Part shown: positions 23,254-53,307 of the stretch, in pieces
Numbering within the stretch: the stretch's first letter is position 1
Layout: each line of letters starts with the position of its first letter
From: Candidatus Colwellbacteria bacterium
GTDB taxonomy: Bacteria; Patescibacteriota; Minisyncoccia; UBA6257; Colwellbacteraceae
DNA length: 64,000 nucleotides
Direction of reading: 5' to 3'
NCBI GenBank assembly: GCA_028710275.1
Contig: JAQTUL010000007.1
Coordinates: forward strand, 952-64,951
The notes under the pieces: generated by a model
Seen by the model: only the letters and a program-made list of their open reading frames with translations
Told to the model about the DNA's origin: nothing
Database searches by the model: none
Made by a program: the position numbers and the translations under genes

Positions 23254-23255
23254 AA

Positions 23256-24176
23256 ATGGAGAGAGTTGATATCAAGGTTGGATTCCAATGCAACAATCAT
23301 TGCATCTTCTGTATACAAGGCAACAAGAGGGAATACTGTAAGGACCGGACAGAAGATGAGATAAAGAAAATATTGGAACAGGGTCGGTCCGAAGGAAAGG
23401 AGGCGGTCGTTTTCACGGGCGGCGAGCCAACTTTTCGTCCGAAGCTTCTTCTTAATTGCGTCTCGTATGCAAGGGATATTGGTTATAGGGTCATACAGAT
23501 ACAATCTAATGGGAGGATGTTCGCATATCGGGCATATTGCGAGGAGATAGTCCGGGCGGGAGCTAATGAATTCTCTCCTGCGGTACATGGGTCGGTCGCC
23601 TCTATACATGACCGTCTCACAAACGCGCCCGGAAGTTTTGATCAGGTTACTGCTGGTATTCGAAATCTGAGAGAACTGAGACAATATATTCTTACCAATT
23701 CGGTGGTAACGAAAATAAATATGGAAGATATACCAAATCTAGCGAAGCTGTTGGTCGAGCTTAGGGTAGACCAGTTCCAGTTCGCTTTTATACATATAAA
23801 TCCGATTATTGCAGAAGACCAGAAGCTCATTGAAGAAGTGGTTCCCTCGATGGCCAAGGCCATGCCTTATGTGAAGGCTGGTCTCGATATAGGCCGGAAG
23901 TCGGGAGTTAAGTGCATGACTGAAGCAATTCCCTATTGCATGATGAGAGAGTACGAAGACCTTATCGCCGAGAGGATAATACCAGAAGCTCATGTCTTCG
24001 ATGCTGAGGAGGATATAGAGAAATACAGCGAGTACAGACAGAACGAAGGAAAATCAAAGGGGCCAAGGTGCGTTTCGGAGTGCATTAAGAACGACGTATG
24101 CGAGGGCCCATGGAGGGAATATCCGCAGCTTTTCGGCTGGGAAGAGTTTAAGCCGATAACCGAAGAAAAGATATGA
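23256..24176 (+). CDS. radical SAM enzyme, array paralog 1 (twitch/SPASM-like, MoaA/PqqE-type core)
   Basis: CNNHCIFC cluster motif, FTGGEPT, QSNGR, GSFDQ..GI.NL, C-terminal CVSECIKNDVCEGPW. Confidence 0.8.
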   Translation: MERVDIKVGFQCNNHCIFCIQGNKREYCKDRTEDEIKKILEQGRSEGKEAVVFTGGEPTFRPKLLLNCVSYARDIGYRVIQIQSNGRMFAYRAYCEEIVRAGANEFSPAVHGSVASIHDRLTNAPGSFDQVTAGIRNLRELRQYILTNSVVTKINMEDIPNLAKLLVELRVDQFQFAFIHINPIIAEDQKLIEEVVPSMAKAMPYVKAGLDIGRKSGVKCMTEAIPYCMMREYEDLIAERIIPEAHVFDAEEDIEKYSEYRQNEGKSKGPRCVSECIKNDVCEGPWREYPQLFGWEEFKPITEEKI

Positions 24177-25102
24177 AAAAGCAAGGAGTAATACTGCTAA
24201 GGTGGGCTAATAAATGTAATAACAACTGCGCGATGTGCAGTCTTCATTCAGGAGATAGTGAAGAGGAGGTTATGTCCATCGAAGAAGCGCTCGATTTCAC
24301 GAGAAAAAACGCGGCATCATATCAAAATATCGAGTTCACTGGAGGCGAGCCGACGATAAAGGAGGGTCTCGTCGATCTTGTCGCGGCAGCCAGAGAATCG
24401 GGATATGAGAGAATAGCTATAAGTACTAACGGCAGAAGGCTTTCTGATGAAAATTTTTGCCGTAAACTAATTGATAACGGTCTGAATGCTGTGACCTTCG
24501 CCCTCCATGGGCATGATGTGGAAACTCATGAAAAGAGGATGAGTAGATCGGATGGAGCTTTTAATGAGGCGATACGAGGTCTCAAAAACCTGATTACAGA
24601 ACATTCAGTGTCATTAAACGTCGCATCTGTTCTTGCAAGACATAACCACGAAACCTTCTCGGAGATTGGCAAGATGCTTATAGAGATGGGCGTTAAGCAA
24701 TGGAGTATATCGGACTTAATCCCGGACGGGAGGGCGCAGGATATATATGATTCACTAAGCCTCAGTCCTTCGGAGGCGGAAAAGGCAATAAGCGGCATTC
24801 TGCCTATGGCTGGTCAGATTGGGCTTGTTATATTTAATTTTTCAAGATGTTTTTTCCCGAGGGACCTTGATGACAGGATACTTTTCTTCGATACCAGAGA
24901 TAAAGCTGATCTTTGTAATATAGAGAGAAAGGAAGGCCGCTATGAGAAGGAGGGCGAAGTCTATCACGATTTTCATAAGACATATCTCGGGATATGCGAA
25001 AAATGTCCGGCATATGAGACATGCGGAGGAGTATGGAGAAGAAATATGGAGCTGTACGGAGAGGGGATAATGACCGAAGTAGCTAGAAGAAACGGTTTTT
25101 GA
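24173..25102 (+). CDS. radical SAM enzyme, array paralog 2
   Basis: CNNNCAMC, FTGGEPT, STNGRR, C-terminal CEKCPAYETCGGVW; ATGA overlap with paralog 1. Confidence 0.8.
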   Translation: MKKQGVILLRWANKCNNNCAMCSLHSGDSEEEVMSIEEALDFTRKNAASYQNIEFTGGEPTIKEGLVDLVAAARESGYERIAISTNGRRLSDENFCRKLIDNGLNAVTFALHGHDVETHEKRMSRSDGAFNEAIRGLKNLITEHSVSLNVASVLARHNHETFSEIGKMLIEMGVKQWSISDLIPDGRAQDIYDSLSLSPSEAEKAISGILPMAGQIGLVIFNFSRCFFPRDLDDRILFFDTRDKADLCNIERKEGRYEKEGEVYHDFHKTYLGICEKCPAYETCGGVWRRNMELYGEGIMTEVARRNGF

Positions 25103-25133
25103 TGCCGAGCTCTCCAAAAATAAAAAAAGACAT

Positions 25134-26075
25134 ATGAAAAAACCAGGAATGATATTCGTCAGATGGGCCAACAGATGCAATAACAATTGTGAGATGTGCA
25201 GTCTTCATTCTGACGACAGCAGAGATGAATCGATGTCGTTCGAAGAGGCGGCGGAGTTTACGATAAAAAACATCGATGAATATTCTAATATCGAGTTTAC
25301 GGGAGGCGAACCGACGATAAAGGAGGGCCTTTTAGAGCTTGTCGCTCTGGCGAAGAAGACGGGATACGATAAGATATGTATCAGTACTAACGGCAGAAGG
25401 CTTTCCGATGAAAATTTTTGCCACGCTCTCGCGGAGAACGGCTTGAACGTTGTGACATTTGCTCTTCATGGGCATAATGCTGAGACCCATGAGAGAATGA
25501 GCCGCGTTATCGGTTCTTTTGAAGAGTCGATGGAGGGAATAAAGAATGTTCTTAATGAACCAACGATGGCGCTTGCGATAACATCCGTCTTATCAAGACA
25601 TAACCACGAAACCTTCTCGGAGATTGGCAAGATGCTTATAGAGATGGGCGTTAAGCAATGGAGTATATCGGACTTAATCCCGGACGGGAGGGCGCAGGAT
25701 ATATATGATTCACTAAGCCTCAGTCCTTCGGAAATGGGGAAATCCCTAGCTGAGGCGATCCCTCTTTTTCCCGGTTTCTATCAGGTTGGGATATTTAATT
25801 TTTCAAGATGCTTTTTCCCAGAAGAACTCTATAGGAACGTTGCATTCTTTGATACGAAAGCAAAAGCTGATCTGTGGGATATAGAAGGTAAGGAGGGCCG
25901 CTATGAGAAGGAGGGCGAAGTTTATCACGATTTTCATAAGACATATCTCGGAATATGCGAAAAATGTCCGGCATATGAGACATGCGGAGGAGTATGGAAG
26001 AGAAGTCTGGAACTATATGGGCCTTCAGAAATGGAAAAAATAGCGAGGGTAAACGGTTTTGTGGAGACGGTGTAA
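25134..26075 (+). CDS. radical SAM enzyme, array paralog 3 (recent duplicate of paralog 2)
   Basis: CNNNCEMC, FTGGEPT, STNGRR; C-terminal half nearly identical to paralog 2, including 100%-identical nucleotide patches. Confidence 0.8.
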   Translation: MKKPGMIFVRWANRCNNNCEMCSLHSDDSRDESMSFEEAAEFTIKNIDEYSNIEFTGGEPTIKEGLLELVALAKKTGYDKICISTNGRRLSDENFCHALAENGLNVVTFALHGHNAETHERMSRVIGSFEESMEGIKNVLNEPTMALAITSVLSRHNHETFSEIGKMLIEMGVKQWSISDLIPDGRAQDIYDSLSLSPSEMGKSLAEAIPLFPGFYQVGIFNFSRCFFPEELYRNVAFFDTKAKADLWDIEGKEGRYEKEGEVYHDFHKTYLGICEKCPAYETCGGVWKRSLELYGPSEMEKIARVNGFVETV

Positions 26076-26096
26076 TATAGGATATAAATAAGACCA

Positions 26097-27074
26097 ATGG
26101 AAAAGACAGTATTCATACAATTGAACTCAACGTGCAATCAGCACTGTCTTTTTTGTAATAGGCCGCCGCAATCGGAAAGGAGCCCGGAATATCTAACCTT
26201 CGAACAAGTAATAAAAAAGATAGATGAGTGCGCTGATGATCCGGAGATAATAAGAGTGTGTCTCACCGGAGGGGAGCCGACCTTATATCCGCGTCTTGTT
26301 GAGGCGGTTACCCGTTGTCACGAGAGAGGCAAGCATGTGGAGATACAGACGAACGGGGTTGCCCTAACAAAGGAAAGAATAAAGGAATTGAAAGACGCAG
26401 GCATAGATATAATAAACTTTGCGTTCCATAGTCATAAGAAGGAAATAAGCAACAGGCTGAGAGGTGTCGATTTCGGTTTTGAGAACATAACCGAATCGAT
26501 AAAGGAGGCTAACCGTCTCGGAATAGTGATTCATATAGTGCATGTCATAACGAAGCTGAACTATAAGGATCTACCGGAGTTTATAGACACTTTTTCAGAT
26601 ATGGGACTTGATCTGCCAAAGATGTTCCTTAATCTTTCAATAGTCGTTCCGGATGGATGGGCCTGGGAGAATAAGGATGTGATCGTCCCAAGGATGTCTG
26701 ATATAAAGCCTTATCTAATCGAAGCCTGCCATAAATGCAAAGAATATGGGATAACCTTCGATATTTCGGAGGTGGTTCCGCTGTGCATAGTGGATGGGTA
26801 TGAGGATATGGCGATATCGACGGTCTTCAAGATAAACAACGCTGTTATAGTCGATGATTACCATACAGGTAAAAAATCCCTCGAGTTTGCCGCTGCTGAC
26901 GAGAGCTGGGCTATGAAGGCTCCCCAATGCGTAAAATGTTCCATGAACGAAATATGTGTCGGATTCTACCCTCATCTTTCTGAGATGTACGGCTTCGAAG
27001 ATTATGTTCCGAGAACGGATGATCCGGCCGAGATAATAAGCCGATTTAAGGGACCAGAAGATGACAGGCAATAA
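26097..27074 (+). CDS. radical SAM enzyme, array paralog 4
   Basis: CNQHCLFC, LTGGEPT, QTNG, C-terminal CVKCSMNEICVGFY. Confidence 0.8.
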   Translation: MEKTVFIQLNSTCNQHCLFCNRPPQSERSPEYLTFEQVIKKIDECADDPEIIRVCLTGGEPTLYPRLVEAVTRCHERGKHVEIQTNGVALTKERIKELKDAGIDIINFAFHSHKKEISNRLRGVDFGFENITESIKEANRLGIVIHIVHVITKLNYKDLPEFIDTFSDMGLDLPKMFLNLSIVVPDGWAWENKDVIVPRMSDIKPYLIEACHKCKEYGITFDISEVVPLCIVDGYEDMAISTVFKINNAVIVDDYHTGKKSLEFAAADESWAMKAPQCVKCSMNEICVGFYPHLSEMYGFEDYVPRTDDPAEIISRFKGPEDDRQ

Positions 27075-28035
27075 TAGAGACAATCAAGGTTTTCCAGAGA
27101 GGATCTGCGTCGTGATGACAGGCTTTTCGTGCAACAACAACTGCATCGTCTGCAGCGTTAGGCCTTACGGACGAAATAATCAGGATAGAGAAACGGCTGA
27201 CATAATAAGATCGATGGAGGAGGGAAGAAATAATGGTATTCCGGGAGTCGAGTTCACCGGAGGCGAACCGACCATGAGAAGAGATATTCTTGCCCTTATA
27301 TCGAAAGCGAAGGAGCTTGGCTATAAGGAAATAGCTTTAAGTACCAATGCAAGAGCATTCGGATACGAGAAGTTCGCGGATGCCGCGATAGAGAGCGGAC
27401 TTAATAGGGTTACGTCCACTATCGACGGTCACAGCGCAGTAGCTCATGATGCGCTGACGAGGACGCCTGGATCATTTGATCAGACGATACAAGGCATAAA
27501 GAATCTCGTTGCCCGCGGGATGAGAATCAGCGTCAATACGGTATTCTGTAAGATGACCGCGCCGAACCTATCTGACATAGGCCGGACCATAACCGATCTC
27601 GGAGTACCCGTGTGGGGAATATTAGACCTGATTCCGGACGGTAATATAGCGGAGATATATCCCGATTTCGTAGTCACTCTTAATGATACATACACCGCTC
27701 TTGATTCCATATATGATATAGCGAGGGAAATAGACCACGTTAATCTCTTTGATTTTCCTATTTGCGCCATACCGGAAAGACTTCGGATATCAAAGCATGC
27801 GGCGGTTTTTGATGCCTTTTCGCGTTCTGATCTTCTGAAGCAGACGGGTTATGACCCTCAGAGGTTCACTGAGGTGGAAGGAAATTACAGCGATATATAT
27901 AAGACGAGACTTAATGGATGCTTATCCTGCCTTAAGAAAGAGGATTGCGCCGGGATATGGAACAGATATATTGACGTTTATGGTAAGGAGGGCGCGGAAG
28001 ATTTCATCACGGACCATAAGGTAGGGAAACAATAA
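27061..28035 (+). CDS. radical SAM enzyme, array paralog 5
   Basis: CNNNCIVC, FTGGEPT, STNAR, TPGSFDQTIQGIKNL, C-terminal CLSCLKKEDCAGIW; 14-nt overlap with paralog 4. Confidence 0.8.
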   Translation: MTGNNRDNQGFPERICVVMTGFSCNNNCIVCSVRPYGRNNQDRETADIIRSMEEGRNNGIPGVEFTGGEPTMRRDILALISKAKELGYKEIALSTNARAFGYEKFADAAIESGLNRVTSTIDGHSAVAHDALTRTPGSFDQTIQGIKNLVARGMRISVNTVFCKMTAPNLSDIGRTITDLGVPVWGILDLIPDGNIAEIYPDFVVTLNDTYTALDSIYDIAREIDHVNLFDFPICAIPERLRISKHAAVFDAFSRSDLLKQTGYDPQRFTEVEGNYSDIYKTRLNGCLSCLKKEDCAGIWNRYIDVYGKEGAEDFITDHKVGKQ

Positions 28036-28051
28036 GGTTGCTGAATCTTAA

Positions 28052-29266
28052 ATGGAGAACAATATCAAAAAGATAGAGGAAATATGTAAGGACAAGAAGA
28101 TAGAACGCAACACCGGCAGTGAAGGCGCTAACAAGGTTATCTATCTCAATCTTGGGGCCCAATGCAATCAGAACTGTAATTTTTGTCTTATAAAAGGGAG
28201 TGAGGGTAATTTTCCATTCATGCCTCTCGTTGAAGCAAAAAGGATAATAAAGGATTTTGCCGAGAGTGGCGGAGAGATGCTTATGATAACAGGAGGCGAG
28301 CCGACTCTCTATCCCGAACTGGATGAGGTTATAGCCTTTGCGGATCTTTTTCCGGGAATAAAACAGGTTTCCATATTAACGAACGCGACCGCCTTTGCCG
28401 ATGGGCTATACACTGAGAAGATAATAGGACGAGATAAATCTAATAAGCTTGGATTTTCGGTCTCCTTTCATTCTCATATCGCAGAAGTCTCGGATAAGAT
28501 AACTCAGGGAATGCCGGGGGATTACGGAAGGACGGTCTCCGGCCTTGCTAATATATCCAAATGGAACAGACAAATATCCGTCTATCACGCGATAGTCTCA
28601 GATAATTTCAATCTCCTTCCTGATTTCGTCGAATGGATAAATGTTAATTTTCCGAACATAAATTCGGTTGTGATGGCTTATCCTTTTCCTCAAGGGAACG
28701 CTGATAAGAATTCCTGGATATACGTTAAATTTACGGAGCTTAAACCTTATTTACTGAAAGCGCTGCATTTTCTTAGAGAAAAAAATATCAGTTCTAATAT
28801 AGCGACCTGCGGACAATTTCCATTATGTATCATACCCGAGTTTGAGGAAAAGGTGCTGAACATGCTGATATTTTTCAGAAAGAATGTCGCGGGTACTGTC
28901 GGTAAAGACGTTTTTCATGAGACGGAATGGTCATCGGAGAAATGGATAAATAACTATAAGAATAAATCTCCTCAGTGTGACCAATGTATCCTTAATGAAG
29001 TTTGTCAGGGCTTTTGGAAAAAATACACGGACATATTTGGTTTTGACGGGGTATCTCCGGTTACCAGGAAGACTTTTGAGGGAAATATCGTCAAGATTGA
29101 TCTCAATACCGAAAATGTCTTTGATCGCGTGATGGCGAGGATATTATGGGAGAGGTTAAACCTTATAATAGCGAAAGGGGACGATGTGATGATATCTAGG
29201 CTGAAGGATGCTCTTGCGGACAATGGAGTTCCGGCAGTTGTGATAAGGGATGACGAAGAGGTCTAA
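28052..29266 (+). CDS. radical SAM enzyme, array paralog 6 (longer, 404 aa, with N- and C-terminal extensions)
   Basis: CNQNCNFC, ITGGEPT, C-terminal CDQCILNEVCQGFW. Confidence 0.75.
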   Translation: MENNIKKIEEICKDKKIERNTGSEGANKVIYLNLGAQCNQNCNFCLIKGSEGNFPFMPLVEAKRIIKDFAESGGEMLMITGGEPTLYPELDEVIAFADLFPGIKQVSILTNATAFADGLYTEKIIGRDKSNKLGFSVSFHSHIAEVSDKITQGMPGDYGRTVSGLANISKWNRQISVYHAIVSDNFNLLPDFVEWINVNFPNINSVVMAYPFPQGNADKNSWIYVKFTELKPYLLKALHFLREKNISSNIATCGQFPLCIIPEFEEKVLNMLIFFRKNVAGTVGKDVFHETEWSSEKWINNYKNKSPQCDQCILNEVCQGFWKKYTDIFGFDGVSPVTRKTFEGNIVKIDLNTENVFDRVMARILWERLNLIIAKGDDVMISRLKDALADNGVPAVVIRDDEEV

Positions 29267-29292
29267 AAAGGACTTGGGAAAAGATACATAAA

Positions 29293-30267
29293 ATGGATAT
29301 AACCGAGGCATACAAGAAGATACACGATATAACCGCGGCCATACCGATAAACGGGGAGGAAATATTAGGTGTTTACATAGGGATAAAGCCGGCGATGGCC
29401 GAGGCAAATACTGGGATATACAACGCTGATTTTCTAAGGAAGATGAGCGTAGTGAACTCTATATGCGGAGAGCTGGGTCTGAAGCTTGCTGTGTCGAAAT
29501 ATAAGTACGTCATAAATAGCCCAAGAGGCATATTTAAGGAGGTATTAAGAGACGACCCGGCGCCCGGATGTTTAATAATAGGTATAGCGAGAGATATGGA
29601 GAAGGCAGTAAGCGGCGTTGCTCATTATCATCTCAAGATGCATCATAGCAAGTATGGAAGGAGCTTCGCTGAGCTTATGGGATATCCTTCCTGTTGTATA
29701 GATTTTGGCGACTATCTCGCCAACAATAAAGGTGATCCGGATAATTTCGGGTTCAAAAATCCGGCAATTGAGGTACTCAAGAGGTCGGATAAAGTTGCCT
29801 GGCAGTTAAACGTTTTTTCTACATCTTCAATGCTTTCGCATTTTCCTTGCAGTTATACCTGCAAGAAGAGTATTGATTATATGAACTCTCTATTAGGCGC
29901 TATAAAGGAGGCCGATCTAGAACATGGCAGGGTGGTGGAAGATAACCTAAAACAGGATATTTCAGTATATTGGAGCTGTGTAGATAAGGTGATGCTTCGC
30001 GGAGATTTTATAAAAAAGGACTCGCTTTTCAGGGAAGGGGAGGCTAGATACGAGAGTATAAAATGGCCGATAGGATCAGAAAACTTTTATCAGGAGGTGG
30101 ACAGCGAGTATCTAGACGGGATGAAGACTATATGGAGGTCGATGGGGGAAGGAGACTGTATAAAGATATCAAAGAACAGCGTTTCAGTATTCAAGGGTGA
30201 TGATGAGATAGGACTTTTCGAGAAAGATAGCCAGTATTCACCGGTAATAGTAAGAGCCGATGCCTGA
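29293..30267 (+). CDS. hypothetical Cys/His-containing protein embedded in the rSAM array (not a radical SAM)
   Basis: 324-aa ORF lacking CxxxCxxC; HYHLKMHH, PSCCIDFGDY, FPCSYTCKK; 8-nt overlap with the next rSAM. Confidence 0.5.
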   Translation: MDITEAYKKIHDITAAIPINGEEILGVYIGIKPAMAEANTGIYNADFLRKMSVVNSICGELGLKLAVSKYKYVINSPRGIFKEVLRDDPAPGCLIIGIARDMEKAVSGVAHYHLKMHHSKYGRSFAELMGYPSCCIDFGDYLANNKGDPDNFGFKNPAIEVLKRSDKVAWQLNVFSTSSMLSHFPCSYTCKKSIDYMNSLLGAIKEADLEHGRVVEDNLKQDISVYWSCVDKVMLRGDFIKKDSLFREGEARYESIKWPIGSENFYQEVDSEYLDGMKTIWRSMGEGDCIKISKNSVSVFKGDDEIGLFEKDSQYSPVIVRADA

Positions 30268-31114
30268 CGAAAAAGATTTCATAAGCCCATACGTATATGT
30301 AGGTTTTCATTGCAATAATAATTGCATTTTTTGCAGTGAGGCTGATGAATATCTAGACGGAAGATTAGAGAAGGACTTTGATGATATCAAACATGAGATA
30401 GACCTTGTGAGGACCGGATACGATTTTGTAAATCTGATGGGTCGTGAGCCCACTCTCAGAAAGGATATCCTTTCCGTGGTTTCTTATGCGAAGAGTGTCG
30501 GTTTTAGACAGGTTGGCCTTACGACGAATGCCAGGATGTTATCGTACGCTCCTTTTGCTGAGGCTATCATAGGGTCTGGATTAAACCAGATAGGAATATC
30601 TCTTCTCGGCGCGACGGCCAAAACCCATGACCTTCTTTCGGCTGCTGAAGGGAGTTATGCTCAGACGATTGAAGGCATAAAGAATGTGATGAGATTTAAG
30701 GGGCCGGACCTGAGTGTTCTCGTAAACATCCCCCTTAACAGAAAGAACGTGTCCGAGCTGGAGGATGAGATAGATCTTCTAATATCTCTAGGGGTGAAAG
30801 AGATAAACGTGTTGTGGGTAGCCCCTCTTAGCCGAAGATCCAGGGATAAGGAACTTATCGGAAGGATGAGTGAACTCGGAAACCATGCTGCCAGGATTAT
30901 AAAAAATCATTTAGGAGAGGCAAAGTTTCTGATGGTCGAGTTCCTTCCTTGTAGCCTAAAAAAAGAATATAGAGATATGTTCTTTCCGTGCCTTGAGAAA
31001 AATCCGTCAAAAATAAGAATAACTTTATGTGGCGGATGTCCCTACGTCGACAAATGCGACGGAGTCCTTTCAAGCTATATTGATATGTACGGCGATGAAG
31101 AGTTTGAAATATAG
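30260..31114 (+). CDS. radical SAM enzyme, array paralog 7
   Basis: CNNNCIFC, GREPT, TTNAR, GSYAQTIEGIKNV, C-terminal CGGCPYVDKCDGV. Confidence 0.8.
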   Translation: MPDEKDFISPYVYVGFHCNNNCIFCSEADEYLDGRLEKDFDDIKHEIDLVRTGYDFVNLMGREPTLRKDILSVVSYAKSVGFRQVGLTTNARMLSYAPFAEAIIGSGLNQIGISLLGATAKTHDLLSAAEGSYAQTIEGIKNVMRFKGPDLSVLVNIPLNRKNVSELEDEIDLLISLGVKEINVLWVAPLSRRSRDKELIGRMSELGNHAARIIKNHLGEAKFLMVEFLPCSLKKEYRDMFFPCLEKNPSKIRITLCGGCPYVDKCDGVLSSYIDMYGDEEFEI

Positions 31115-31214
31115 GACCAGGTCTTCTTTATTGTGGATAGTGTTGTTTCAAAACGCCTGGTGTTAACATATAATCAATACATAAACCAAAAGAAAGCCTT
31201 TAAATAAAATAAAA

Positions 31215-31754
31215 ATGAAAAAATCTTATTATCTCGTCATAGCTCTTTTTGTGGCCGTAGCAGTATTTGTTGGGGGGGTACTTGTATACATGAATAAGGG
31301 AGTTTCGGTACCTTCTGATACCGTGCAGGAAAACATACAGACCGGCGAAGCCCCGACTATTCCGCCTGTGGATGATAAAGGAAAGTCTCCTGAGTTTAAG
31401 ACTACCTATAAGGGAAGGGACATAACCGCCAATCCCGATTACCAGATTGGCATTCTTGATGGAAAACTAGCTAAGGACCCGGACGTTGTTAATAAGACAA
31501 TATCGATGGATGTGGACATAATGAAGATATTTCCTAATATGGACATTGAGCAGCTGAATACCATTATTTCCGTATCAGGCGCTAAGTTTTTCGTGAAAGT
31601 CGGAAATGCTGAGCCTACAGAAGCGAGCTTGTCCGATCTTAAAGAAGGGGATGTAGTGAACGTTGGACTTGTCGATGGCCAGACGAATAGAGACATCGTC
31701 AAAGAGGGAAGCAAACTCACCGCTCAGCAGGTCTATAAGTTTATAATTCAATAA
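31215..31754 (+). CDS. membrane-anchored (signal-anchor) hypothetical protein within the rSAM array
   Basis: N-terminal TM helix YYLVIALFVAVAVFVGGVLVYM followed by a soluble domain; terminator follows. Confidence 0.5.
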   Translation: MKKSYYLVIALFVAVAVFVGGVLVYMNKGVSVPSDTVQENIQTGEAPTIPPVDDKGKSPEFKTTYKGRDITANPDYQIGILDGKLAKDPDVVNKTISMDVDIMKIFPNMDIEQLNTIISVSGAKFFVKVGNAEPTEASLSDLKEGDVVNVGLVDGQTNRDIVKEGSKLTAQQVYKFIIQ

Positions 31755-31773
31755 TTACCTATGGTGATAAGAG

Positions 31774-31802
31774 CCGACTCGATTAACTCGAGTCGGTTTT
31801 TT
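31774..31802 (+). terminator. rho-independent terminator inside the rSAM array (CCGACTCGA-ttaac-TCGAGTCGG followed by T6)
   Basis: perfect 9-bp stem followed by TTTTTT; followed by a TATAAT-like box at 31825..31832. Confidence 0.7.
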
Positions 31803-31838
31803 GTCCTTTTCTGTATCTCTTGTATATAATTCCGACTA

Positions 31839-32816
31839 ATGCCCCCAGATATAATAAAGAAAACAGTCGTATTTGCCGGATACAGATGTAACAACAACTG
31901 CCGGTTTTGTATGGAAGCTGATAAGAGAGATTTGCCTGTGAGGGGTACTGCTGTAATCAAGGGCGAGCTTAAATCAGCTAGAGAAAGGGGGTCTGATTAT
32001 ATCGAGATTATCGGAGGGGAGGCCGCAATGAGGTCTGACATAACATCAATCATCTCCTATGCCAAGGATTTGGGCTTTTCGACCATTATGATGGCTACGA
32101 ACGGCAGAATGTTTTCCTATCCGGAACTTACAAAGCGGCTCATCGATGCTGGGCTTAATAGCCTTGTTTTCTCGATACATGGAGCCGATGCGGAGACTCA
32201 TGACTACCTCACTCGGTCGCCTGGCAGTTTCGATCAATTGATAGTCGGGATGGAGAATGTGAAAAATGCGGCTATTATCTCGGGAGCCAGAATATCGCTG
32301 GGGTCGAATACCTGCATAGTAAAGGATAATTACCGTCAGCTTCCGGCAATCAGTGAGCTTATAGCTTCTTCTGGCGTTGGGAATTCAGAGTTTATATTCG
32401 TAGACTGCAACGAGGGAGGGGCGAAGAACAGTTTTGATGAGCTCGTTCCGAAGATATCTGACGCAGCTCCTTATATGAGAGAGTGTCTTGATATCGGAAA
32501 CAGAAATAAGGCTGATCATTGGGATGTCAGATATGTGCCCTTATGCTATTTTCCGGATCATCTGAATAGGATAAGTGAATTACATGAGGCAAAGACCTTT
32601 CATACGGAACATATCGCCCAGGATTTCGTGAATACCGATGCGCAAAGCGGTCGCAAGAATGTAGGGAGGAGAAAATCAAGAAGGTGTTCCGAGTGTATTC
32701 TCGACCCATGGTGTGAGGGAATATGGAGAACATATATCTCACGCTATGGAGATGATGAGCTTATTCCCATTACTGAGCTGACAGTTGGTCAAAAAGAGAT
32801 GCTTGATGGGCTCTAA
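31839..32816 (+). CDS. radical SAM enzyme, array paralog 8
   Basis: CNNNCRFC, IGGEAA, ATNGRMFSY, SPGSFDQLIVGMENV, C-terminal CSECILDPWCEGIW. Confidence 0.8.
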   Translation: MPPDIIKKTVVFAGYRCNNNCRFCMEADKRDLPVRGTAVIKGELKSARERGSDYIEIIGGEAAMRSDITSIISYAKDLGFSTIMMATNGRMFSYPELTKRLIDAGLNSLVFSIHGADAETHDYLTRSPGSFDQLIVGMENVKNAAIISGARISLGSNTCIVKDNYRQLPAISELIASSGVGNSEFIFVDCNEGGAKNSFDELVPKISDAAPYMRECLDIGNRNKADHWDVRYVPLCYFPDHLNRISELHEAKTFHTEHIAQDFVNTDAQSGRKNVGRRKSRRCSECILDPWCEGIWRTYISRYGDDELIPITELTVGQKEMLDGL

Positions 32817-32858
32817 TTCCGATATTTCGGGCAAAATGGTATCATTTACGAAATAGTC

Positions 32859-33056
32859 ATGGAAAAAGAGTACATAATCACCTATAGGAGCGAAGAGCAT
32901 TTTGAAGTTGTTGGTTGGGTAAAGGCCGAGTCTATGGAAGAGGCCAAAGAGCTGGCCAGAAACGTGCTCGCCAAAGAAGCGTCTTTTTATGGCGTGACCG
33001 AGGCAGAGATAGCCGAATACGGAACGTCGGAGACGATGAGCTTCGAAGAGAAGTAA
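32859..33056 (+). CDS. small acidic protein (65 aa), candidate precursor peptide or partner protein, TAATG-coupled to the next rSAM
   Basis: ORF ends with TAA overlapping the ATG at 33056; highly acidic, no Cys. Confidence 0.4.
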   Translation: MEKEYIITYRSEEHFEVVGWVKAESMEEAKELARNVLAKEASFYGVTEAEIAEYGTSETMSFEEK

Positions 33057-33985
33057 TGGATGTCTGCGTCTGGAACAGGTGCAATAACAGGTGTGTTATG
33101 TGTACTAATCCCGAAGGTTTCGGGGACGTTTCTTTGAGTGGACCTTATTCTTATGAGGGGGTTCTTTCGAGGGTATTAAGGATAAAAGACATTCCCGATT
33201 CGGCTGCTGAGGCTATATGTCTTACCGGAGGTGAGCCGACCTCCCATCCTGAGTTTCTAAGATTGGTCTCAACAATCAAGAGGGAGCTTCCTAATAATCA
33301 GCTAATACTTGCCACGAATGGCAGAATGTTCGCATATGAGGAGTTTGCCAGAAAATATCTTGCAATCGGTAGCTCGAAGATAGAAATACCGATACATGGA
33401 TCAGAGGCCAGACTCCATGATGCCATAACGTGCGTGAAGGGAAGTTTTGAACAGACTATCCAGGGGATAGAAAACATATTGAAGTACATGTCATTTGAGC
33501 ATGAGCTCGAAATAAGACTTGTTCTTACAAAGATAAATTTACATGATACGCGGGCGATACTGGATCTTGTTAAAGAAAGTTTTCCAAGGATAACCAGAGT
33601 GGTAGTGATATTCCCTGAATTCGAGGGTATGTGCGCCAAGAATATGGAGGTGGTCGGGCTTAAATATTCGGATGTTAAGGAGGAGATGACGGGATTGATA
33701 TCCGAATGGAAAGAATCTTTCGATGGTTTAAGCCTATATCATTTCCCATTATGTTCCCTTCCGGTCGGCCTTTGGGGATATGCCTGGAGGACATTGAGAG
33801 GGAATGAGATAATGTTTCCTGAACAATGTAATGGGTGCCGTTTTAAAAAATATTGTCTGGGCGTACACGTAGATTATGCCAAACTTATAGGTACAGATGA
33901 GTTTATGCCTCCGACAGGGAATATAAAGATAAAAGAGAATAATGGTCCGGATAGGGAATATCACCCGATAATCGAAGCTATATAA
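33056..33985 (+). CDS. radical SAM enzyme, array paralog 9 (start set at Met48 of the longer track ORF)
   Basis: CNNRCVMC, LTGGEPT, ATNGRMFAY, GSFEQTIQGIENI, C-terminal CNGCRFKKYCLGVH; the upstream in-frame extension is Arg-rich junk overlapping the small ORF. Confidence 0.75.
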   Translation: MDVCVWNRCNNRCVMCTNPEGFGDVSLSGPYSYEGVLSRVLRIKDIPDSAAEAICLTGGEPTSHPEFLRLVSTIKRELPNNQLILATNGRMFAYEEFARKYLAIGSSKIEIPIHGSEARLHDAITCVKGSFEQTIQGIENILKYMSFEHELEIRLVLTKINLHDTRAILDLVKESFPRITRVVVIFPEFEGMCAKNMEVVGLKYSDVKEEMTGLISEWKESFDGLSLYHFPLCSLPVGLWGYAWRTLRGNEIMFPEQCNGCRFKKYCLGVHVDYAKLIGTDEFMPPTGNIKIKENNGPDREYHPIIEAI

Positions 33986-33996
33986 AATAATCAACA

Positions 33997-35148
33997 ATGG
34001 GAATAACGATATTTTTGGCAGCTCCCGCGCTCATATTAATAGGGGTGATATCCTCTTATACCGATCTTAAGTACGGTCGCATACCTAATTGGTTGATAAT
34101 ATTCGGTTTTGTGTATGCTATCTGCCTGTATTCTTTCCTATTCGGATACAATGCTTTCTTTCTTCATCAAGCGGTAAACGGGGCATATATTTTAAAGGCT
34201 TTACAGAACACAGCAATCGCCTTTGTCTCTGGGGTTATATTATGGAAAATGAGTTTCTGGTCAGCTGGCGATGCCAAGCTTTTTGCTGTCTATGCGGCTA
34301 TTCTTCCGCTAGAAGCCTATATGAATGGATACGTTGATCAGTTTCCCTCCTTTAATCTCCTGGTAAATCTTTTCTTTCCACTGGTACTAGTTCTTATAAT
34401 AAAGGCTATCTGGTTTGCTATTAAAACATGGTTTCCGTTAATCAAAAACGGTTCATGGAAAGAAGAGATAAAGATAAAAGACATACCGATGATGGCATTG
34501 AAGGGCGCATTAGCCCTTCTTAAGTTATTTGGTAACTTCTTCTTCATGTACCTTATCTTTATGACGGTTGGGCAGATAGTATCTTTCATCTCTCATGGGA
34601 CATTCAAGATAGATCCTTTCATAATGTATTTTGGAATATTAGCCATCATGGGAAGGTTCAATGCGATACAGAAAAAATATAAACTAGCAAAGTTCGGGGT
34701 ATATTCTATATCTGCCGGATATCTAACTTATCTCCTTATTCTCGCTCAATACGCGACTCTCAGAAAGATGATTGTGATGGCTCTAGTATTCATGGTCGCG
34801 ATAACAGTGACCAGGAAGATTCTTGATATATATATTCAAAAAGCCGAAATAAAAGAAGTTGTAGTCAAAAGCCTCGTCCGAGGGACAATGCTTCATTCAT
34901 CTGAGATGTCTGCCATAAAGAATGAGCTAGTGGAGAACGGAAGAGGGGAGGAATTCGGTTGGTTCGAGCCCGGCGGACTAAAAGAATCACAGGTTCTGAT
35001 AATAAAAGAGATCTTTTCTGATAGGGAAGAAACGATATTTAGGGCATATAGAACCTTTCCATTCGCTCCTTTCCTATCCCTTTCGGTAATTATAACCATG
35101 ATAACCGGGATATCGTTCATAAAATATTTTCAGGTATTCATGAAATAA
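33997..35148 (+). CDS. polytopic membrane protein with N-terminal A24 prepilin-peptidase-like (TadV/CpaA/FlaK-type) aspartic protease domain plus a long C-terminal extension
   Basis: first Asp motif YTDLKYGRIPNWL (D...RIPN) and second Asp motif SAGDAKLFA (GxGD-like) in TM helices; about 8 TM helices in total. Confidence 0.55.
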   Translation: MGITIFLAAPALILIGVISSYTDLKYGRIPNWLIIFGFVYAICLYSFLFGYNAFFLHQAVNGAYILKALQNTAIAFVSGVILWKMSFWSAGDAKLFAVYAAILPLEAYMNGYVDQFPSFNLLVNLFFPLVLVLIIKAIWFAIKTWFPLIKNGSWKEEIKIKDIPMMALKGALALLKLFGNFFFMYLIFMTVGQIVSFISHGTFKIDPFIMYFGILAIMGRFNAIQKKYKLAKFGVYSISAGYLTYLLILAQYATLRKMIVMALVFMVAITVTRKILDIYIQKAEIKEVVVKSLVRGTMLHSSEMSAIKNELVENGRGEEFGWFEPGGLKESQVLIIKEIFSDREETIFRAYRTFPFAPFLSLSVIITMITGISFIKYFQVFMK

Positions 35149-40834: not shown

Positions 40835-40907
40835 GCGCCTTTAGCTCAATGGATAGAGCATCTGGCTTCGAACCAGAAGGTTGCGGGTTCGACTCCTGCA
40901 GGGCGCA
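40835..40907 (+). tRNA. tRNA-Arg (anticodon TCG)
   Basis: acceptor GCGCCTT/AGGGCGC, D stem GCTC/GAGC, anticodon stem TCTGG/CCAGA with loop CTTCGAA, T-arm GCGGG-TTCGACT-CCTGC. Confidence 0.8.
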
Positions 40908-40916
40908 CAACAAAGC

Positions 40917-42389
40917 GTGAAAAAAGATATCGTCGATAAAATTCCGAACGAGGCAAAAGAGGTTCTCCAAAAGTTGGAAGAGGCTGGTTTTCAGGCATAT
41001 GTCGTAGGAGGTGCCGTCAGGGATATTCTATATGAAAAGGTGCCGAAAGACTGGGACATCGCGACCGATGCCAGACCGGAAGTTATCCAGGTAATATTTC
41101 CGGATTCGGTATATGAAAACGCTTTTGGGACAGTTGGGGTAAAAACGAGATCGGATGATAAGAGCGTAGCCGTGATAGAGGTGACCACTTTCAGAAAAGA
41201 GGGTTCCTATTCTGATCGTAGGCATCCGGACGAGGTTCAGTTCGCTGATACGATAGAGGAGGATCTTTCAAGGAGAGATTTCACGGTGAATGCGATGGCG
41301 ATGACTATAAGAGGGGAGTTAACTGATCCGTTTGATGGACGGAGTGATATTTCCAAAAAATCGATAAGGGCTGTAGGCGATCCAGAAAGGCGTTTTGATG
41401 AAGATGCACTTCGACTTGTTCGCGCAGTCCGTTTTGCGGCAGAGTTGGGTTTTGAAATAGAAGATAAAACTCTTTCAGCTATAAGAGATAAAGCTTCACT
41501 TCTAAAAGAGATAGCTTCAGAAAGGATAAGGGAGGAATTCGTAAAGATATTGATGAGCGACGGCAATGGTCCGGCATGGGGAGTTGTTGAACTCGAAAAC
41601 CTTGGTCTTCTCTCGAACATCATTCCGGAACTTAGGGACGGTATAGGTGTCGGTCAAAACAAGCATCATATATACACTGTTTGGGAGCATAATCTTCGCG
41701 CGCTCGACTATACAGCCAAAGAAGGAGCATCTCTCGAAGTGCGATTAGCTGCCCTTTTGCATGATGTTGGGAAACCTAGATCCAAGGTTGGTGATGGGCC
41801 TGATTCGACCTTCCATAACCATGAAGTTATAGGGGGAAAGATGGCTGTCAAAATACTGGAGAGGCTTCATTTTTCCAAGAAAACAACAGAGCGGGTATCA
41901 CATCTAGTAAGACATCATCTTTTCTATTACAACGTCGGAGAGGTGACTGAGGCCGGGGTAAGGCGATTCATAAGCAGGGTAGGAGAAGAAAATATCGACG
42001 ATTTAATGAAGATACGTGAGGCCGATCGCATAGGGTCAGGTGTTCCTAAGGCGGTCCCATATAAGAACCGTCATCTCAAATTTATGATAGACAAGGTTCG
42101 CCGAGACCCTATAGCTCCAAAGATGCTCGCTCTTAACGGAAATGAACTGATGGGCAATCTTGGGATAGAGCCGGGACCCCGTATCGGAATGATTCTCTCG
42201 ATACTTCTCGAAAGCGTATTAGACGATCCTTCTTTAAACAATAAGGATTTTTTATCCGAAAGGGCGAGAGAACTTAATGTTATGGGTGACGATGAGCTTC
42301 GATTATTATCATTGAAAGCCAGAGATGCAAAGAGTGAATTCGAAGCTGGCATAGAAGCCGAGATAAAAAAGAGACATAAGGTCAGCTAG
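40917..42389 (+). CDS. cca: CCA-adding tRNA nucleotidyltransferase with HD domain (GTG start just after tRNA-Arg)
   Basis: pol-beta-type NT motif GGAVRD...DWD, HD motif HDVGK; located between tRNA genes; none of the tRNAs here encode CCA. Confidence 0.8.
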   Translation: MKKDIVDKIPNEAKEVLQKLEEAGFQAYVVGGAVRDILYEKVPKDWDIATDARPEVIQVIFPDSVYENAFGTVGVKTRSDDKSVAVIEVTTFRKEGSYSDRRHPDEVQFADTIEEDLSRRDFTVNAMAMTIRGELTDPFDGRSDISKKSIRAVGDPERRFDEDALRLVRAVRFAAELGFEIEDKTLSAIRDKASLLKEIASERIREEFVKILMSDGNGPAWGVVELENLGLLSNIIPELRDGIGVGQNKHHIYTVWEHNLRALDYTAKEGASLEVRLAALLHDVGKPRSKVGDGPDSTFHNHEVIGGKMAVKILERLHFSKKTTERVSHLVRHHLFYYNVGEVTEAGVRRFISRVGEENIDDLMKIREADRIGSGVPKAVPYKNRHLKFMIDKVRRDPIAPKMLALNGNELMGNLGIEPGPRIGMILSILLESVLDDPSLNNKDFLSERARELNVMGDDELRLLSLKARDAKSEFEAGIEAEIKKRHKVS

Positions 42390-42443
42390 GTTATCTATTG
42401 GAAAAAAGAAATCCGACGGGTTATAATGCCACCCGTCAGAGAA

Positions 42444-42514
42444 CGGGCTGTAGTATACCGGTAGTACGTACGATTCGGGTTCGTAAAGACTGGGTTCGAT
42501 TCCCAGCAGCCCGA
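42444..42514 (+). tRNA. tRNA-Pro (anticodon CGG)
   Basis: C1:G72 acceptor (CGGGCTG/CAGCCCG) typical of bacterial tRNA-Pro, anticodon stem TACGA/TCGTA with loop TTCGGGT, T-arm CTGGG-TTCGATT-CCCAG. Confidence 0.8.
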
Positions 42515-42567
42515 CAGAGATAAAACCCCCTCATGGGGGTTTTACAATGTGTCGCTGGGAATCGAAG
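42502..42567 (+). repeat. direct repeat copy 1: tRNA-Pro 3' end, terminator hairpin (AACCCCC-tcat-GGGGGTT), inverted T-arm copy (GCTGGGAATCGAA)
   Basis: about 66-bp unit repeated at 42673..42738 with three mismatches; the inverted 13-mer is the exact reverse complement of the tRNA-Pro T-arm segment. Confidence 0.8.
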
Positions 42568-42672
42568 GGGGAGGGGCCGGGAGGGGAGAAATGTCGCCCC
42601 TCCCGTTTAGGAAGAGATTAGAAACCGAGGGTTTCTAAAAGGAATAAGCGGATGCTTATGACGTGAGAGCTT

Positions 42673-42738
42673 CCCAGTAGCCCGACAGAGATAAAACCCC
42701 CTCATGGGGGTTTTACAATGTGTCACCGGGAATCGAAG
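42673..42738 (+). repeat. direct repeat copy 2 (partial tRNA-Pro 3' end, terminator hairpin, inverted T-arm-like segment)
   Basis: CCCAGTAGCCCGACAGAGATAAAACCCCCTCATGGGGGTTTTACAATGTGTCACCGGGAATCGAAG; period about 171 bp. Confidence 0.8.
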
Positions 42739-42834
42739 AAAAGGAGGATAGCTCTCTGCTATAATGATGGAAGAGTTGACGATTGCCCTGTGCTGAGGGT
42801 ATAAGGTCCGAAGCGAAACCCTAAAATAAAAGAA

Positions 42835-53094: not shown

Positions 53095-53165
53095 GGGCCT
53101 GTAGTAAAGTGGTATTACACGGCATTCGCATTGCCGGGTCAGGGGTTCGATTCCCCTCAGGTCCA
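53095..53165 (+). tRNA. tRNA-Ala (anticodon CGC)
   Basis: acceptor GGGCCTG/CAGGTCC with the G3:U70 Ala identity pair, D stem GTAA/TTAC, anticodon stem CGGCA/TGCCG with loop TTCGCAT, T-arm AGGGG-TTCGATT-CCCCT. Confidence 0.8.
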
Positions 53166-53206
53166 CATAATAAAAGAGCTCCTCAGGGAGCTCTTTTATT
53201 ATGTGG
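53163..53206. terminator. perfect 20-bp-stem palindrome (CCACATAATAAAAGAGCTCC-tcag-GGAGCTCTTTTATTATGTGG) overlapping the tRNA-Ala 3' end; bidirectional terminator-like
   Basis: exact inverted repeat verified base by base; the inner part is a classic terminator with a T-run. Confidence 0.7.
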
Positions 53207-53307
53207 TGGGGAATCGAACCCCCAGGTAAGAAAGACGATTCGTAGAGATAAGTCTTCATACGATAAATTTTTTATTAGAGATAATTCAGTAAATGAGGGA
53301 GGGGTGA

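What the first reader, a model, noticed from the sequence alone, without database searches (positions are those of the whole stretch)
42444..42740. tRNA-Pro followed by a duplicated 3'-end/terminator module and inverted T-arm mimics
Seen in sequence: the last ~13 nt of tRNA-Pro plus its terminator hairpin plus a 13-nt exact inverted copy of the T-arm (GCTGGGAATCGAA) form a ~66-bp unit (42502..42567). The unit recurs 171 bp downstream (42673..42738, three mismatches), with a 9-bp GC hairpin (CGGGAGGGG...CCCCTCCCG, 42578..42608) in between. Duplicated tRNA 3' ends are the classic footprint of site-specific integration (attL/attR). No integrase or cargo lies between the copies. Inference: this could be the scar of an excised or decayed element, a tandem duplication, or a structured RNA element. 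The inverted T-arm copy can pair with the tRNA's own T-arm region in a read-through transcript.
Basis: partly seen in the sequence, partly recalled or inferred. Interest (0 to 1): 0.55.

Follow-up and report, generated by a model that had tools for sequence, protein, structure and literature searches.

The report
Tiny non-coding mobile element behind tRNA-Pro
The duplicated tRNA-Pro 3' end brackets one copy of a small, protein-less, hairpin-rich insertion element found at over 100 tRNA, tmRNA and housekeeping-gene ends in Patescibacteria, and I found no prior description of it.

Summary
A 68-nt unit (42500-42567) recurs at 42671-42738 with 3 mismatches, and a 13-nt exact inverted copy of the T-arm follows the tRNA-Pro trailer hairpin.

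It is not a private scar. The 104 nt between the copies (42567-42670) is a conserved three-hairpin core. A covariance model and pattern scans find it in 11 loci of Patescibacteria MAGs and in at least 95 metagenome loci.

The anatomy is constant:
- gene end (B1);
- an optional trailer or hairpin;
- B', an inverted copy of the first 8-22 nt of the duplicated segment;
- the core;
- a second, dead copy of the gene end (B2).

Targets are tRNAs of about 35 anticodons, tmRNA, and the 3' or 5' ends of gap, pyrG, fusA, lepA, rpsI, uvrC and others. At protein targets the two copies differ almost only at synonymous sites, so one copy arrived with the element from another lineage.

No protein is encoded or consistently linked. 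There is no match in Rfam, phage or plasmid collections.

Best reading: a miniature non-autonomous integrative element that restores the gene end it splits. The window holds one full copy plus a truncated tandem copy. The recombinase is unknown, and B' may act as a target-matching arm.

The parts
42444..42515 (+). tRNA-Pro(CGG), the functional target gene. It has no encoded CCA. Its promoter-like site TTGGAA-18-TATAAT lies at 42398-42427.
   Evidence: ARAGORN; Rfam tRNA 59.1 bits; promoter scan
42500..42515 (+). B1: tRNA nucleotides 59-73 plus one (TTCCCAGCAGCCCGAC). This is the copy of the gene end that completes the working tRNA and forms the left direct repeat.
   Evidence: Direct repeat D1. 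In 46 family members the duplication starts 14-23 nt from the tRNA 3' end.
42516..42553 (+). T1: trailer with a 10-bp hairpin, TAAAACCCCC/GGGGGTTTTA, at 42521-42544. It is terminator-like and is part of the 68-nt repeat.
   Evidence: Inverted repeat I6; fold; not called by the terminator scan
42554..42566 (+). B': GCTGGGAATCGAA, the exact reverse complement of the tRNA's T-loop plus 3' T-stem (42495-42507). It can pair with B1 (13 bp) or with the start of B2 (8 bp), and the B2 pairing closes the core into a stem-loop.
   Evidence: I2; folds. In the family B' sits 6-10 nt before the core and matches the adjacent target.
42567..42670 (+). Class A core of 104 nt. It runs: purine-rich lead GGGGGAGGGGCCGG; H1 at 42578-42605; linker GTTTAGGAAGAGATT; H2 AGAAACCGAGGGTTTCT at 42620-42636; H3 ATAAGCGGATGCTTAT at 42644-42659; and the conserved right end GACGTGAGAGC at 42660-42670, a pseudo T-loop.
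   Evidence: Alignments A1-A3. Covariance model R1 hits 42562-42643 at 52.5 bits, E 8e-12, although the window sequence was in the seed. Six seed-independent loci score 54.6-69.4 bits. H1/H2 compensatory pairs; folds with z -3.3 to -4.6.
42671..42686 (+). B2: TTCCCAGTAGCCCGAC, the displaced dead copy of the tRNA 3' end (C66 changed to T).
   Evidence: D1. A B2 copy is present 69-136 nt after the core motif in 46 of 61 tRNA-linked members.
42687..42738 (+). Second, truncated unit: T2 (hairpin 42692-42715) plus B'2 (ACCGGGAATCGAAG, 42725-42738), with no core after it. B'2 matches the CCGGG/CCCGG T-stem of relatives' tRNA-Pro, not this genome's CTGGG/CCCAG.
   Evidence: D1, I5, I7; relatives L100 and L104; tandem arrays with truncated distal units in L207, L190 and L020
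42757..42765 (+). Right limit of the inserted material. The extended -10 TGCTATAAT and the leader of corA are conserved in relatives (TGCTATACTAATGATG...AGTTGACG).
   Evidence: Read from the sequence and compared with L100-L102; CorA Pfam hit
53164..53221 (+). Related site at tRNA-Ala(CGC) 53095-53166. It has a 19-bp perfect palindromic trailer hairpin followed by GGGGAATCGAACCC (53208-53221), an inverted copy of that tRNA's T-arm. There is no core and no B2, so it is probably a decayed or core-less unit.
   Evidence: The covariance model finds no core there.

Best explanation
Window 42516-42738 is inserted DNA. It holds one complete and one truncated tandem copy of a small (about 170 nt), protein-less integrative element that sits in the T-loop-to-3'-end segment of tRNA-Pro.

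What the element brings (shown by anatomy): its own copy of the gene end (B1, which keeps the tRNA intact), a trailer hairpin, a short arm (B') complementary to the start of the duplicated segment, and a conserved three-hairpin core. The resident gene end is pushed downstream as a dead fragment (B2).

How it got there (inferred): recombination took place between the element-borne gene end and the resident gene, as for tRNA-integrating islands, but catalysed in trans by an enzyme not encoded in the element.

Role of B' (inferred, less certain): the stem formed by B' and the start of B, which closes the core into a stem-loop, is the recombination or recognition structure. B' matches the element to its target. 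The window's 68-nt repeats arose because the target already carried a B-T-B' module from an earlier copy, giving tandem integration or unequal exchange.
For: 1. Family. Of the 95, 61 lie 22-95 nt after a same-strand tRNA, covering about 35 anticodons. One follows a tmRNA.

2. Constant anatomy. B' of at least 10 nt occurs downstream of 16 tRNAs in the relatives' loci and in no upstream control. B2 is found only downstream. The duplication starts 14-23 nt from the tRNA end and stops within 2 nt of it in 28 of 46 cases.

3. Same anatomy at protein-gene ends. Targets include gap, pyrG, rpsI, uvrC and RNR at their 3' ends, and fusA, lepA, GH57 and GT4 at their 5' ends.

4. The two gene-end copies come from different lineages. 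They differ by 26 synonymous against 4 non-synonymous codons: fusA 9:0, GH57 5:0, lepA 4:0, gap 8:4.

5. Mobility. The same tRNA-Pro site holds different element classes in syntenic relatives. Cores at least 90% identical sit at different targets. Tandem arrays occur.

6. Non-autonomy. No ORF family recurs within 3.5 kb of 93 loci. No recombinase Pfam hit appears among 56 window ORFs.

7. Structure. H1 and H2 show compensatory changes. B'/B2 complementarity averages 6.8 against 4.6 for permuted partners.
Against: No excised, circular or empty-site form was observed. No enzyme was identified, so the mechanism rests on anatomy alone. B' pairs better with the functional gene end (B1; mean extended stem about 15 nt) than with B2. 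This fits target matching, but it also fits a post-insertion RNA or DNA hairpin role. How B' and B1 are re-made for a new target is unexplained. Two near-identical cores (L121, L160) abut tRNA 5' ends without B' or B2. Mismatch types in the B' stem give no strand or RNA signal. Only 64-68% identical relatives of this genome exist in the collections, so insertion polymorphism within the species could not be tested.
Confidence: 0.6

Rival explanations
1. The core is a host-beneficial structured RNA, for example a processing, stability or termination module co-transcribed with the upstream gene. It has spread, and the repeats are by-products. B' pairs with the gene end in the transcript to form a protective or terminating hairpin.
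For: H1 and H2 covary, and H1 often has a GGGA (GNRA-type) loop. The + strand folds 3-10 kcal/mol better than its complement in 8 of 8 members. A G-T pair in the class B closing stem is tolerated on the + strand (read). In L160 the core lies between a promoter-like site and a tRNA, as a leader.
Against: The element's orientation follows the gene body, not the direction of transcription. It sits at 3' ends of same-strand genes and at 5' ends of opposite-strand genes. No single RNA role therefore fits all sites. The dead second gene-end copy, and the fact that the two copies come from diverged lineages, require DNA insertion. No Rfam family matches. B'-stem mismatches show no G-U excess.
Confidence: 0.15
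2. The feature is the decayed remnant of a large integrase-bearing island or prophage that integrated into tRNA-Pro and lost its genes by deletion.
For: Duplicated tRNA 3' ends are the known mark of such islands (Islander abstract, PMC4383910, seen). L180 shows two element copies flanking 2.4 kb that encodes a GIY-YIG protein, an unknown ORF and an M23 peptidase.
Against: More than 100 independent loci have the same compact 100-200-nt body with the same ends. Random decay would not give that. No integrase was found next to any copy. The core was not found in IMG/VR, INPHARED or PLSDB.
Confidence: 0.1
3. The feature is a purely local tandem duplication or replication slippage at a hairpin in this genome, or an assembly artefact, with no wider meaning.
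For: The two 68-nt copies are 96% identical and contain a hairpin. The Logan assembly breaks in the repeat.
Against: The sequence between the copies belongs to a family found in unrelated assemblies with the same flanking logic. The three mismatches between the copies argue against a collapsed or duplicated assembly path.
Confidence: 0.04

Closest known systems
tRNA/tmRNA-integrating genomic islands and prophages (tyrosine-integrase type, as catalogued by Islander; also islands restoring the 5' end of dusA)
   Same: The target gene is split and is restored by an element-borne copy. The displaced fragment marks the far end. Targets are tRNA, tmRNA and the ends of protein genes. Identity between the two copies stops at the end of the conserved gene. 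Tandem arrays occur. (Abstracts of PMC4383910 and PMC4482086; my.)
   Different: This element has no integrase and no cargo, and its body is only 100-200 nt. It has a conserved hairpin-rich core, plus an inverted arm (B') matched to each target. One core family is spread over about 35 tRNA species and many protein genes, whereas one integrase lineage normally keeps to one target.
Cis-mobilizable elements (CIMEs) and other non-autonomous att-flanked elements; satellite tycheposons of Prochlorococcus (bioRxiv 10.1101/2020.12.28.424599, listed; details from my own knowledge)
   Same: They are flanked by att-type repeats, lack their own recombination genes, and are presumed to be moved in trans. 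They accumulate in arrays at tRNA genes.
   Different: Those elements are kilobases long, are recognisably deletion derivatives of autonomous elements, and have no target-complementary arm or conserved structured core. No autonomous relative of class A was found here.
Folded single-strand recombination sites: integron attC sites and the CTX-phage attP(+) hairpin (own knowledge)
   Same: A stem formed by inverted repeats with a structured or variable centre sits exactly at the recombination junction. Units can stack in arrays next to one entry site.
   Different: attC stems carry conserved R''/R' boxes read by IntI, and the CTX stem mimics dif for XerCD. Here the stem sequence changes with each target and only the loop (the core) is conserved. 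No IntI or dedicated Xer link was shown.
Guide-directed mobile elements: IS200/IS605 guide/cleavage-site pairing, IS110 bridge RNA, group II intron EBS/IBS (own knowledge)
   Same: A segment inside the element is complementary to the target at the junction and lies next to conserved hairpins.
   Different: Those elements encode (or are linked to) their transposase, recombinase or RT, and they leave no long gene-end duplication. Their guides are 4-14 nt in defined loops. None of their sequence or structure signatures (Rfam models) match.
MITEs / REP-like repeats
   Same: They are small, non-coding, multi-copy and hairpin-forming, with inverted repeats at the borders.
   Different: MITE terminal repeats are element-specific and their target duplications are short and fixed. 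Here the 'terminal repeats' are copies of the target, and the duplication is 12-86 nt and ends at the gene end.

Membership tests
tDNA-integrating genomic island (Islander-type) | The target gene is split. The element-borne sequence restores it, and the displaced fragment marks the other end. | tested here: met
   B1/B2 in the window and in 46 tRNA-linked plus about 10 protein-linked members. The two copies come from diverged lineages.
tDNA-integrating genomic island (Islander-type) | An integrase gene lies inside the element, next to one att site. | tested here: not met
   There are 171 nt between the copies and no ORF. No recurrent ORF family lies near 93 loci. No recombinase Pfam hit appears among the window's 56 ORFs.
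tDNA-integrating genomic island (Islander-type) | The crossover falls at a symmetric tRNA sublocation (anticodon loop or T-loop), with identity running to the tRNA 3' end. | tested here: met
   The duplication begins at T-loop nt 59 (14-18 nt from the end) and stops within 2 nt of the tRNA end in 28 of 46 cases.
Cis-mobilizable element (CIME) | Derived by deletion from an identifiable autonomous ICE or IME that shares its att-proximal sequences. | tested here: not met
   No autonomous relative was found in genome loci, 120 metagenome loci, IMG/VR, phages or plasmids.
MITE | Terminal inverted repeats are conserved among copies, and the target-site duplication is short and of fixed length. | tested here: not met
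   The border repeats (B'/B) differ with every target, and the duplication is 12-86 nt.
Integron attC / cassette array | An imperfect palindrome with conserved R''(RYYYAAC)/R'(GTTRRRY) boxes, sitting downstream of intI-attI. | tested here: not met
   The stem sequences are target-specific with no conserved boxes. No intI-like ORF was found in the window.
IS200/IS605-type PATE or REP/BIME | Subterminal hairpins, insertion 3' of a fixed tetra- or pentanucleotide, and no target duplication. | tested here: not met
   Long gene-end duplications are always present and there is no common target oligonucleotide.
Any curated RNA family (Rfam 15), including self-cleaving ribozymes, introns and tRNA-like elements | A match to the family covariance model. 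| tested here: not met
   Only the tRNA and tmRNA genes match. Nothing covers the core, even at E up to 10 in the window and E up to 1 in five canonical loci.
Class A element family defined here | The core GGG(T/C)CGG-H1-CCGT..GGA-linker-AACCG-H2, preceded by a target-complementary arm and followed by a second copy of the gene end. | tested here: met
   The window scores 52.5 bits, E 8e-12 with model R1, but it was part of the seed. Seed-independent members L025, L036, L007, L012, L008 and L077 score 54.6-69.4 bits. The window's B' and B2 are present.

The most novel reading that the evidence does not exclude
B' is a built-in guide. The element, as folded single-stranded DNA or as an RNA, uses a 10-20-nt arm next to a conserved scaffold to base-pair with the target gene end. 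This directs a trans-acting host or helper recombinase. The result would be a programmable, protein-less integrative element class that can retarget to any gene end while repairing the gene it splits. That would be a mobility mechanism not covered by integrase islands, MITEs, attC cassettes or bridge-RNA insertion sequences.
Probability: 0.3. Interest if true: 0.9.

Novelty: new variant of a known kind. Interest (0 to 1): 0.72.

Why it matters
Patescibacteria have tiny genomes that are thought to carry few mobile elements. Here a roughly 100-nt structured module has colonised the ends of tRNA, tmRNA and core housekeeping genes across the group. It carries replacement gene ends between lineages without encoding any protein.

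If the target-complementary arm directs integration, this would be a minimal, naturally retargetable insertion system. It would also point to an unidentified recombinase.

In practical terms, these units explain many 'partial tRNA' fragments, long palindromic tRNA trailers and contig breaks in CPR assemblies. They also provide markers of horizontal exchange.

Tried and rejected
- **Rfam searches** at gathering and permissive thresholds on the window and on canonical members found only tRNA and tmRNA.
- **IMG/VR pattern scan** gave 18 hits, all chance, with no H1 stem.
- **blastn of a canonical core** against phage and plasmid collections found nothing.
- **Exact-protein look-up of the 306-aa CorA ORF** failed. 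The annotated 293-aa form gave only a Logan contig that breaks in the repeat.
- **No close relative** (more than 68% identity) exists, so no empty-site comparison was possible.
- **Search for a linked enzyme** by all-vs-all clustering of neighbouring ORFs found only sporadic GIY-YIG and HTH/LAGLIDADG-like ORFs.
- **Simple fold-back origin of B'** was rejected. The acceptor 3' strand between the hairpin and B' is skipped or unrelated (window, tRNA-Ala, L007).
- **Retroviral PBS-like or tRNA-primed origin** was rejected. There is no CCA in B2, and the same anatomy occurs at protein genes.
- **T-loop intron reading** was rejected. The MFE pairs the tRNA 5' acceptor strand with the second 3' end, but B1 already gives a complete tRNA.
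- **corA riboswitch or leader reading** was rejected. The conserved corA promoter and leader start only after 42750.
- **Hammerhead-like CUGAUGA** in L019 is not shared by other class B members.
- **Strand test by G-T versus A-C mismatches** was inconclusive.
- **RNAalifold** prefers a GGT/ACC pairing that competes with H2. Both partners are invariant, so this could not be resolved.

Full report
**The observation**

tRNA-Pro(CGG) occupies 42444-42515 and has no encoded CCA. A 68-nt segment, 42500-42567, recurs at 42671-42738 with three transitions. Its central 44 nt occur exactly twice in the window, against none in 100 shuffles.

The segment has three parts:
- the last 16 nt of the tRNA (B1);
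- a trailer with a 10-bp hairpin (T);
- GCTGGGAATCGAA (B'), a 13/13 reverse complement of the tRNA's T-loop and 3' T-stem.

The GC hairpin between the copies is real. Its arms are 42578-42589 and 42594-42605.

**Context**

The window is from a Patescibacteria (CPR) genome.
- A bacterial 23S rRNA gene starts at 63838.
- The flanking CCA-adding enzyme and CorA have their best relatives in Paceibacteria-type MAGs.
- The annotated CorA is a 100% match to a 'Candidatus Colwellbacteria' MAG protein.
- The order tRNA-Arg, CCA enzyme, tRNA-Pro, CorA is syntenic in relatives.
- None of 56 ORFs in the window has a recombinase, transposase or RT domain.

**The feature is not private to this genome**

A second tRNA in the window, tRNA-Ala at 53095, is also followed by a long palindromic hairpin and an inverted copy of its own T-arm.

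In 80 loci from relatives:
- 16 of about 250 tRNAs have an exact inverted copy of at least 10 nt of their own T-arm, 36-63 nt downstream. Upstream controls never exceed 9 nt.
- About 25 tRNAs have a second copy of their own last 14 nt, 50-250 nt downstream and never upstream.
- The inverted copy always matches the T-loop variant of the adjacent tRNA.

Directly after it, many loci carry the same sequence as the window's 'spacer': GGGAAAGGGGTCGG, a hairpin (H1), CCGTGG(A/C)GGAAG, a second hairpin GAAACCGnnnGGTTTC (H2), a variable third hairpin (H3), and a right end such as GACGTGAGA. The second tRNA 3' end follows. I call this the class A core. In the window it spans 42567-42670.

Other cores (classes B-E) occupy the same position with the same flanks.

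**Size and range of the family**

A covariance model (R1) built mostly from metagenome members recovers exactly the 11 members already found in the window plus the relatives' loci. Seed-independent hits score 54.6-69.4 bits. The model finds no second core in the window.

Of 122 matches, 95 have a perfect H1 stem of at least 7 bp. The remaining matches have stems of 3-5 bp, which is chance level.

Of these 95 members:
- 61 lie 22-95 nt downstream of a same-strand tRNA, covering about 35 different anticodons.
- B' ends about 9-10 nt before the core.
- A copy of the tRNA's last 14 nt lies 69-136 nt after the core motif in 46 members.
- The duplication starts 14-23 nt from the tRNA 3' end, that is, within the T-loop. 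It ends within 2 nt of the tRNA end in 28 of 46 cases.
- One member follows a tmRNA gene.

**Protein-gene targets are the most informative**

About 20 members are not at tRNAs. They sit at the ends of housekeeping genes:
- at 3' ends: gap, pyrG, rpsI, uvrC and ribonucleotide reductase;
- at 5' ends of opposite-strand genes: fusA, lepA, a GH57 gene and a GT4 gene.

The anatomy is the same as at tRNAs. It runs: gene body; B1 (the last or first 33-69 nt of the gene); B' (8-22 nt, the reverse complement of the start of the duplicated segment, ending 6-10 nt before the core); the core; then B2, which is 78-96% identical to B1.

B1 and B2 differ almost only at synonymous sites: fusA 9:0, GH57 5:0, lepA 4:0, gap 8:4. 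This includes a TCT/AGT serine pair. A dead duplicate decaying in place would not keep the protein sequence. Both copies were therefore once parts of working genes in diverged lineages. One of them travelled with the element and recombined with the resident gene.

This is the logic of tRNA-integrating islands. In those, island sequence restores the split gene and the displaced fragment marks the other end (Islander abstract, PMC4383910). The restoration of a 5' end has a known parallel in dusA islands (PMC4482086; both seen).

**Evidence for mobility and non-autonomy**

- The same tRNA-Pro/corA spacer holds a class A element in the window, class A plus class E in L104, and class E alone in L100-L102.
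- Cores at least 90% identical sit at different targets: tRNA-Val and tRNA-Thr, uvrC and a tRNA.
- Tandem arrays occur: three 126-nt units in L020; two 184-nt units plus a third core in L190; and a distal unit truncated inside H1 in L207.
- The window is of the truncated-distal kind. Its second unit has B, T and B' but no core.
- B'2 (ACCGGG...) matches the CCGGG/CCCGG T-stem of relatives' tRNA-Pro, whereas B'1 matches this genome's CTGGG/CCCAG stem.
- No protein family recurs near the elements. The maximum is 5 of 93 loci, for sporadic GIY-YIG and HTH/LAGLIDADG-like ORFs.
- One locus (L180) has two copies flanking 2.4 kb that encodes a GIY-YIG protein, an unknown ORF and an M23 peptidase, but no integrase.

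**Structure of the core**

H1 and H2 show abundant compensatory changes (AT, GC, CG and TA at the same depth). The commonest H1 loop is GGGA. The window's element folds into a closing stem (B' with the start of B2) and three hairpins, with z-scores of -3.3 (RNA) and -4.6 (DNA).

Across members:
- B' is complementary to the start of B2 well beyond permuted partners (6.8 versus 4.6 nt).
- It is even more complementary to the functional gene end, with a mean extended stem of about 15 nt.
- At tRNA targets the core's right end carries a conserved pseudo T-loop, GTGAGATT, instead of GTTCGATT. B', however, matches the real T-loop.

Thus B' tracks the target rather than the element's own end. Whether the active form is RNA or single-stranded DNA is open. 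The + strand folds better than its complement in 8 of 8 members, but stem mismatches show no G-T excess. The element's orientation follows the gene body, not the direction of transcription. That argues against a single host-RNA function.

**Interpretation**

Shown:
- The finding is one full and one truncated copy of a widespread, miniature, non-coding insertion element.
- The element restores the gene end it splits.
- The duplicated tRNA ends are its attL/attR-like borders.

Inferred:
- Integration is by recombination within the shared gene-end segment, catalysed in trans.
- The B'/B stem around the core is the recognition structure.

Speculative (probability about 0.3):
- B' acts as a guide that matches the element to new targets.

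Not explained:
- how B' and B1 are re-made when the element changes target;
- the identity of the enzyme;
- why some cores (L121, L160) abut tRNA 5' ends without B'.

**Comparison with known systems**

The element works like a tRNA-integrating island but fails that family's defining feature of an internal integrase. It fails MITE, attC and IS200/IS605-PATE definitions on tested features (see the membership table). It matches no Rfam family and no phage, plasmid or IMG/VR sequence. Full-text searches found no description, although that library is incomplete.

I therefore rate it a new variant of a known kind, namely integrative elements that repair their target. The possibility that its targeting mechanism is new in kind remains open.

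Noticed in passing
window 17550-35148: A run of at least 13 same-strand radical SAM genes spans 17550-33985. A collagen-repeat ORF (19282-20055) lies within it and a Peptidase_A24-like ORF (33997-35148) lies at its end. This is an unusually dense peptide- or RiPP-modification-like cluster for a CPR genome.
   Followed up: no
window 53095-53260: tRNA-Ala(CGC) is followed by a 19-bp perfect palindromic hairpin and an inverted copy of its own T-arm (53208-53221), but no core and no second 3' end. The sequence ...AAGAAAGACG|ATTCGTAGAG downstream may be the remnant of a core right end.
   Followed up: partly
L019, L032, L065, L016 (class B); L020, L030, L035 (class C); L014, L042 (class D); L100-L102, L104:2190-2350 (class E): At least four further, unrelated core types occupy the same slot between an inverted T-arm copy and a second tRNA 3' end. 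Their right ends resemble the 3' part of a T-loop (GGCGATT, GACGAAT). The architecture, not one sequence family, is what recurs.
   Followed up: partly
L180:1834-4720: Two nearly identical class A units, both ending in the tRNA-Gly(GCC) 3' end, flank 2.4 kb that encodes an 80-aa GIY-YIG protein, an unknown 200-aa ORF and an M23 peptidase. A degenerate tRNA 3' end lies before the second unit. This may be a cargo-carrying form.
   Followed up: partly
L170, L176, L204 (just downstream of the element); L194, L215: ORFs of 220-270 aa with an N-terminal HTH and an 'LYWGEGD/LYWAEG' motif (LAGLIDADG-like by eye; only HTH_23 by Pfam) lie next to class A elements in 5 of 93 loci. Small GIY-YIG ORFs occur in another 5. 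This is too sporadic to call an association.
   Followed up: partly
L121:272-400 and L160:4330-4460: Two 98%-identical class A cores end exactly at the 5' end of a tRNA gene (tRNA-Ala, tRNA-Met), with no B' and no duplicated gene end. In L160 the core lies between a promoter-like TTGACT-17-TAGGAT and the tRNA, so it would be an RNase P-removed leader.
   Followed up: no
class A H3 / right end in 18 of 92 members (e.g. L118, L120, L126): The heptamer GCGAAGC is frequent in H3. To my knowledge it forms an exceptionally stable DNA mini-hairpin. In some members it is inserted into the pseudo T-loop (GTGAGATAGCGAAGCGTCC). This hints at a single-stranded DNA stage.
   Followed up: no
window 40835-42389: The CCA-adding enzyme gene sits between tRNA-Arg and tRNA-Pro, and the longest ORF's TTG start overlaps tRNA-Arg. 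tRNA-Pro and tRNA-Ala, whose 3' ends I read in full, lack an encoded CCA; the other five tRNAs were not checked systematically. This gene order is conserved across Paceibacteria-like MAGs.
   Followed up: no
L168 and L195 (metagenome loci): Class A elements are inserted after an unidentified, conserved non-coding sequence (...CTTTGGAGCTCGCACCCGTCCTCCGCATTGCGCC...) with a 22-nt B'. The target may be another small RNA gene.
   Followed up: no
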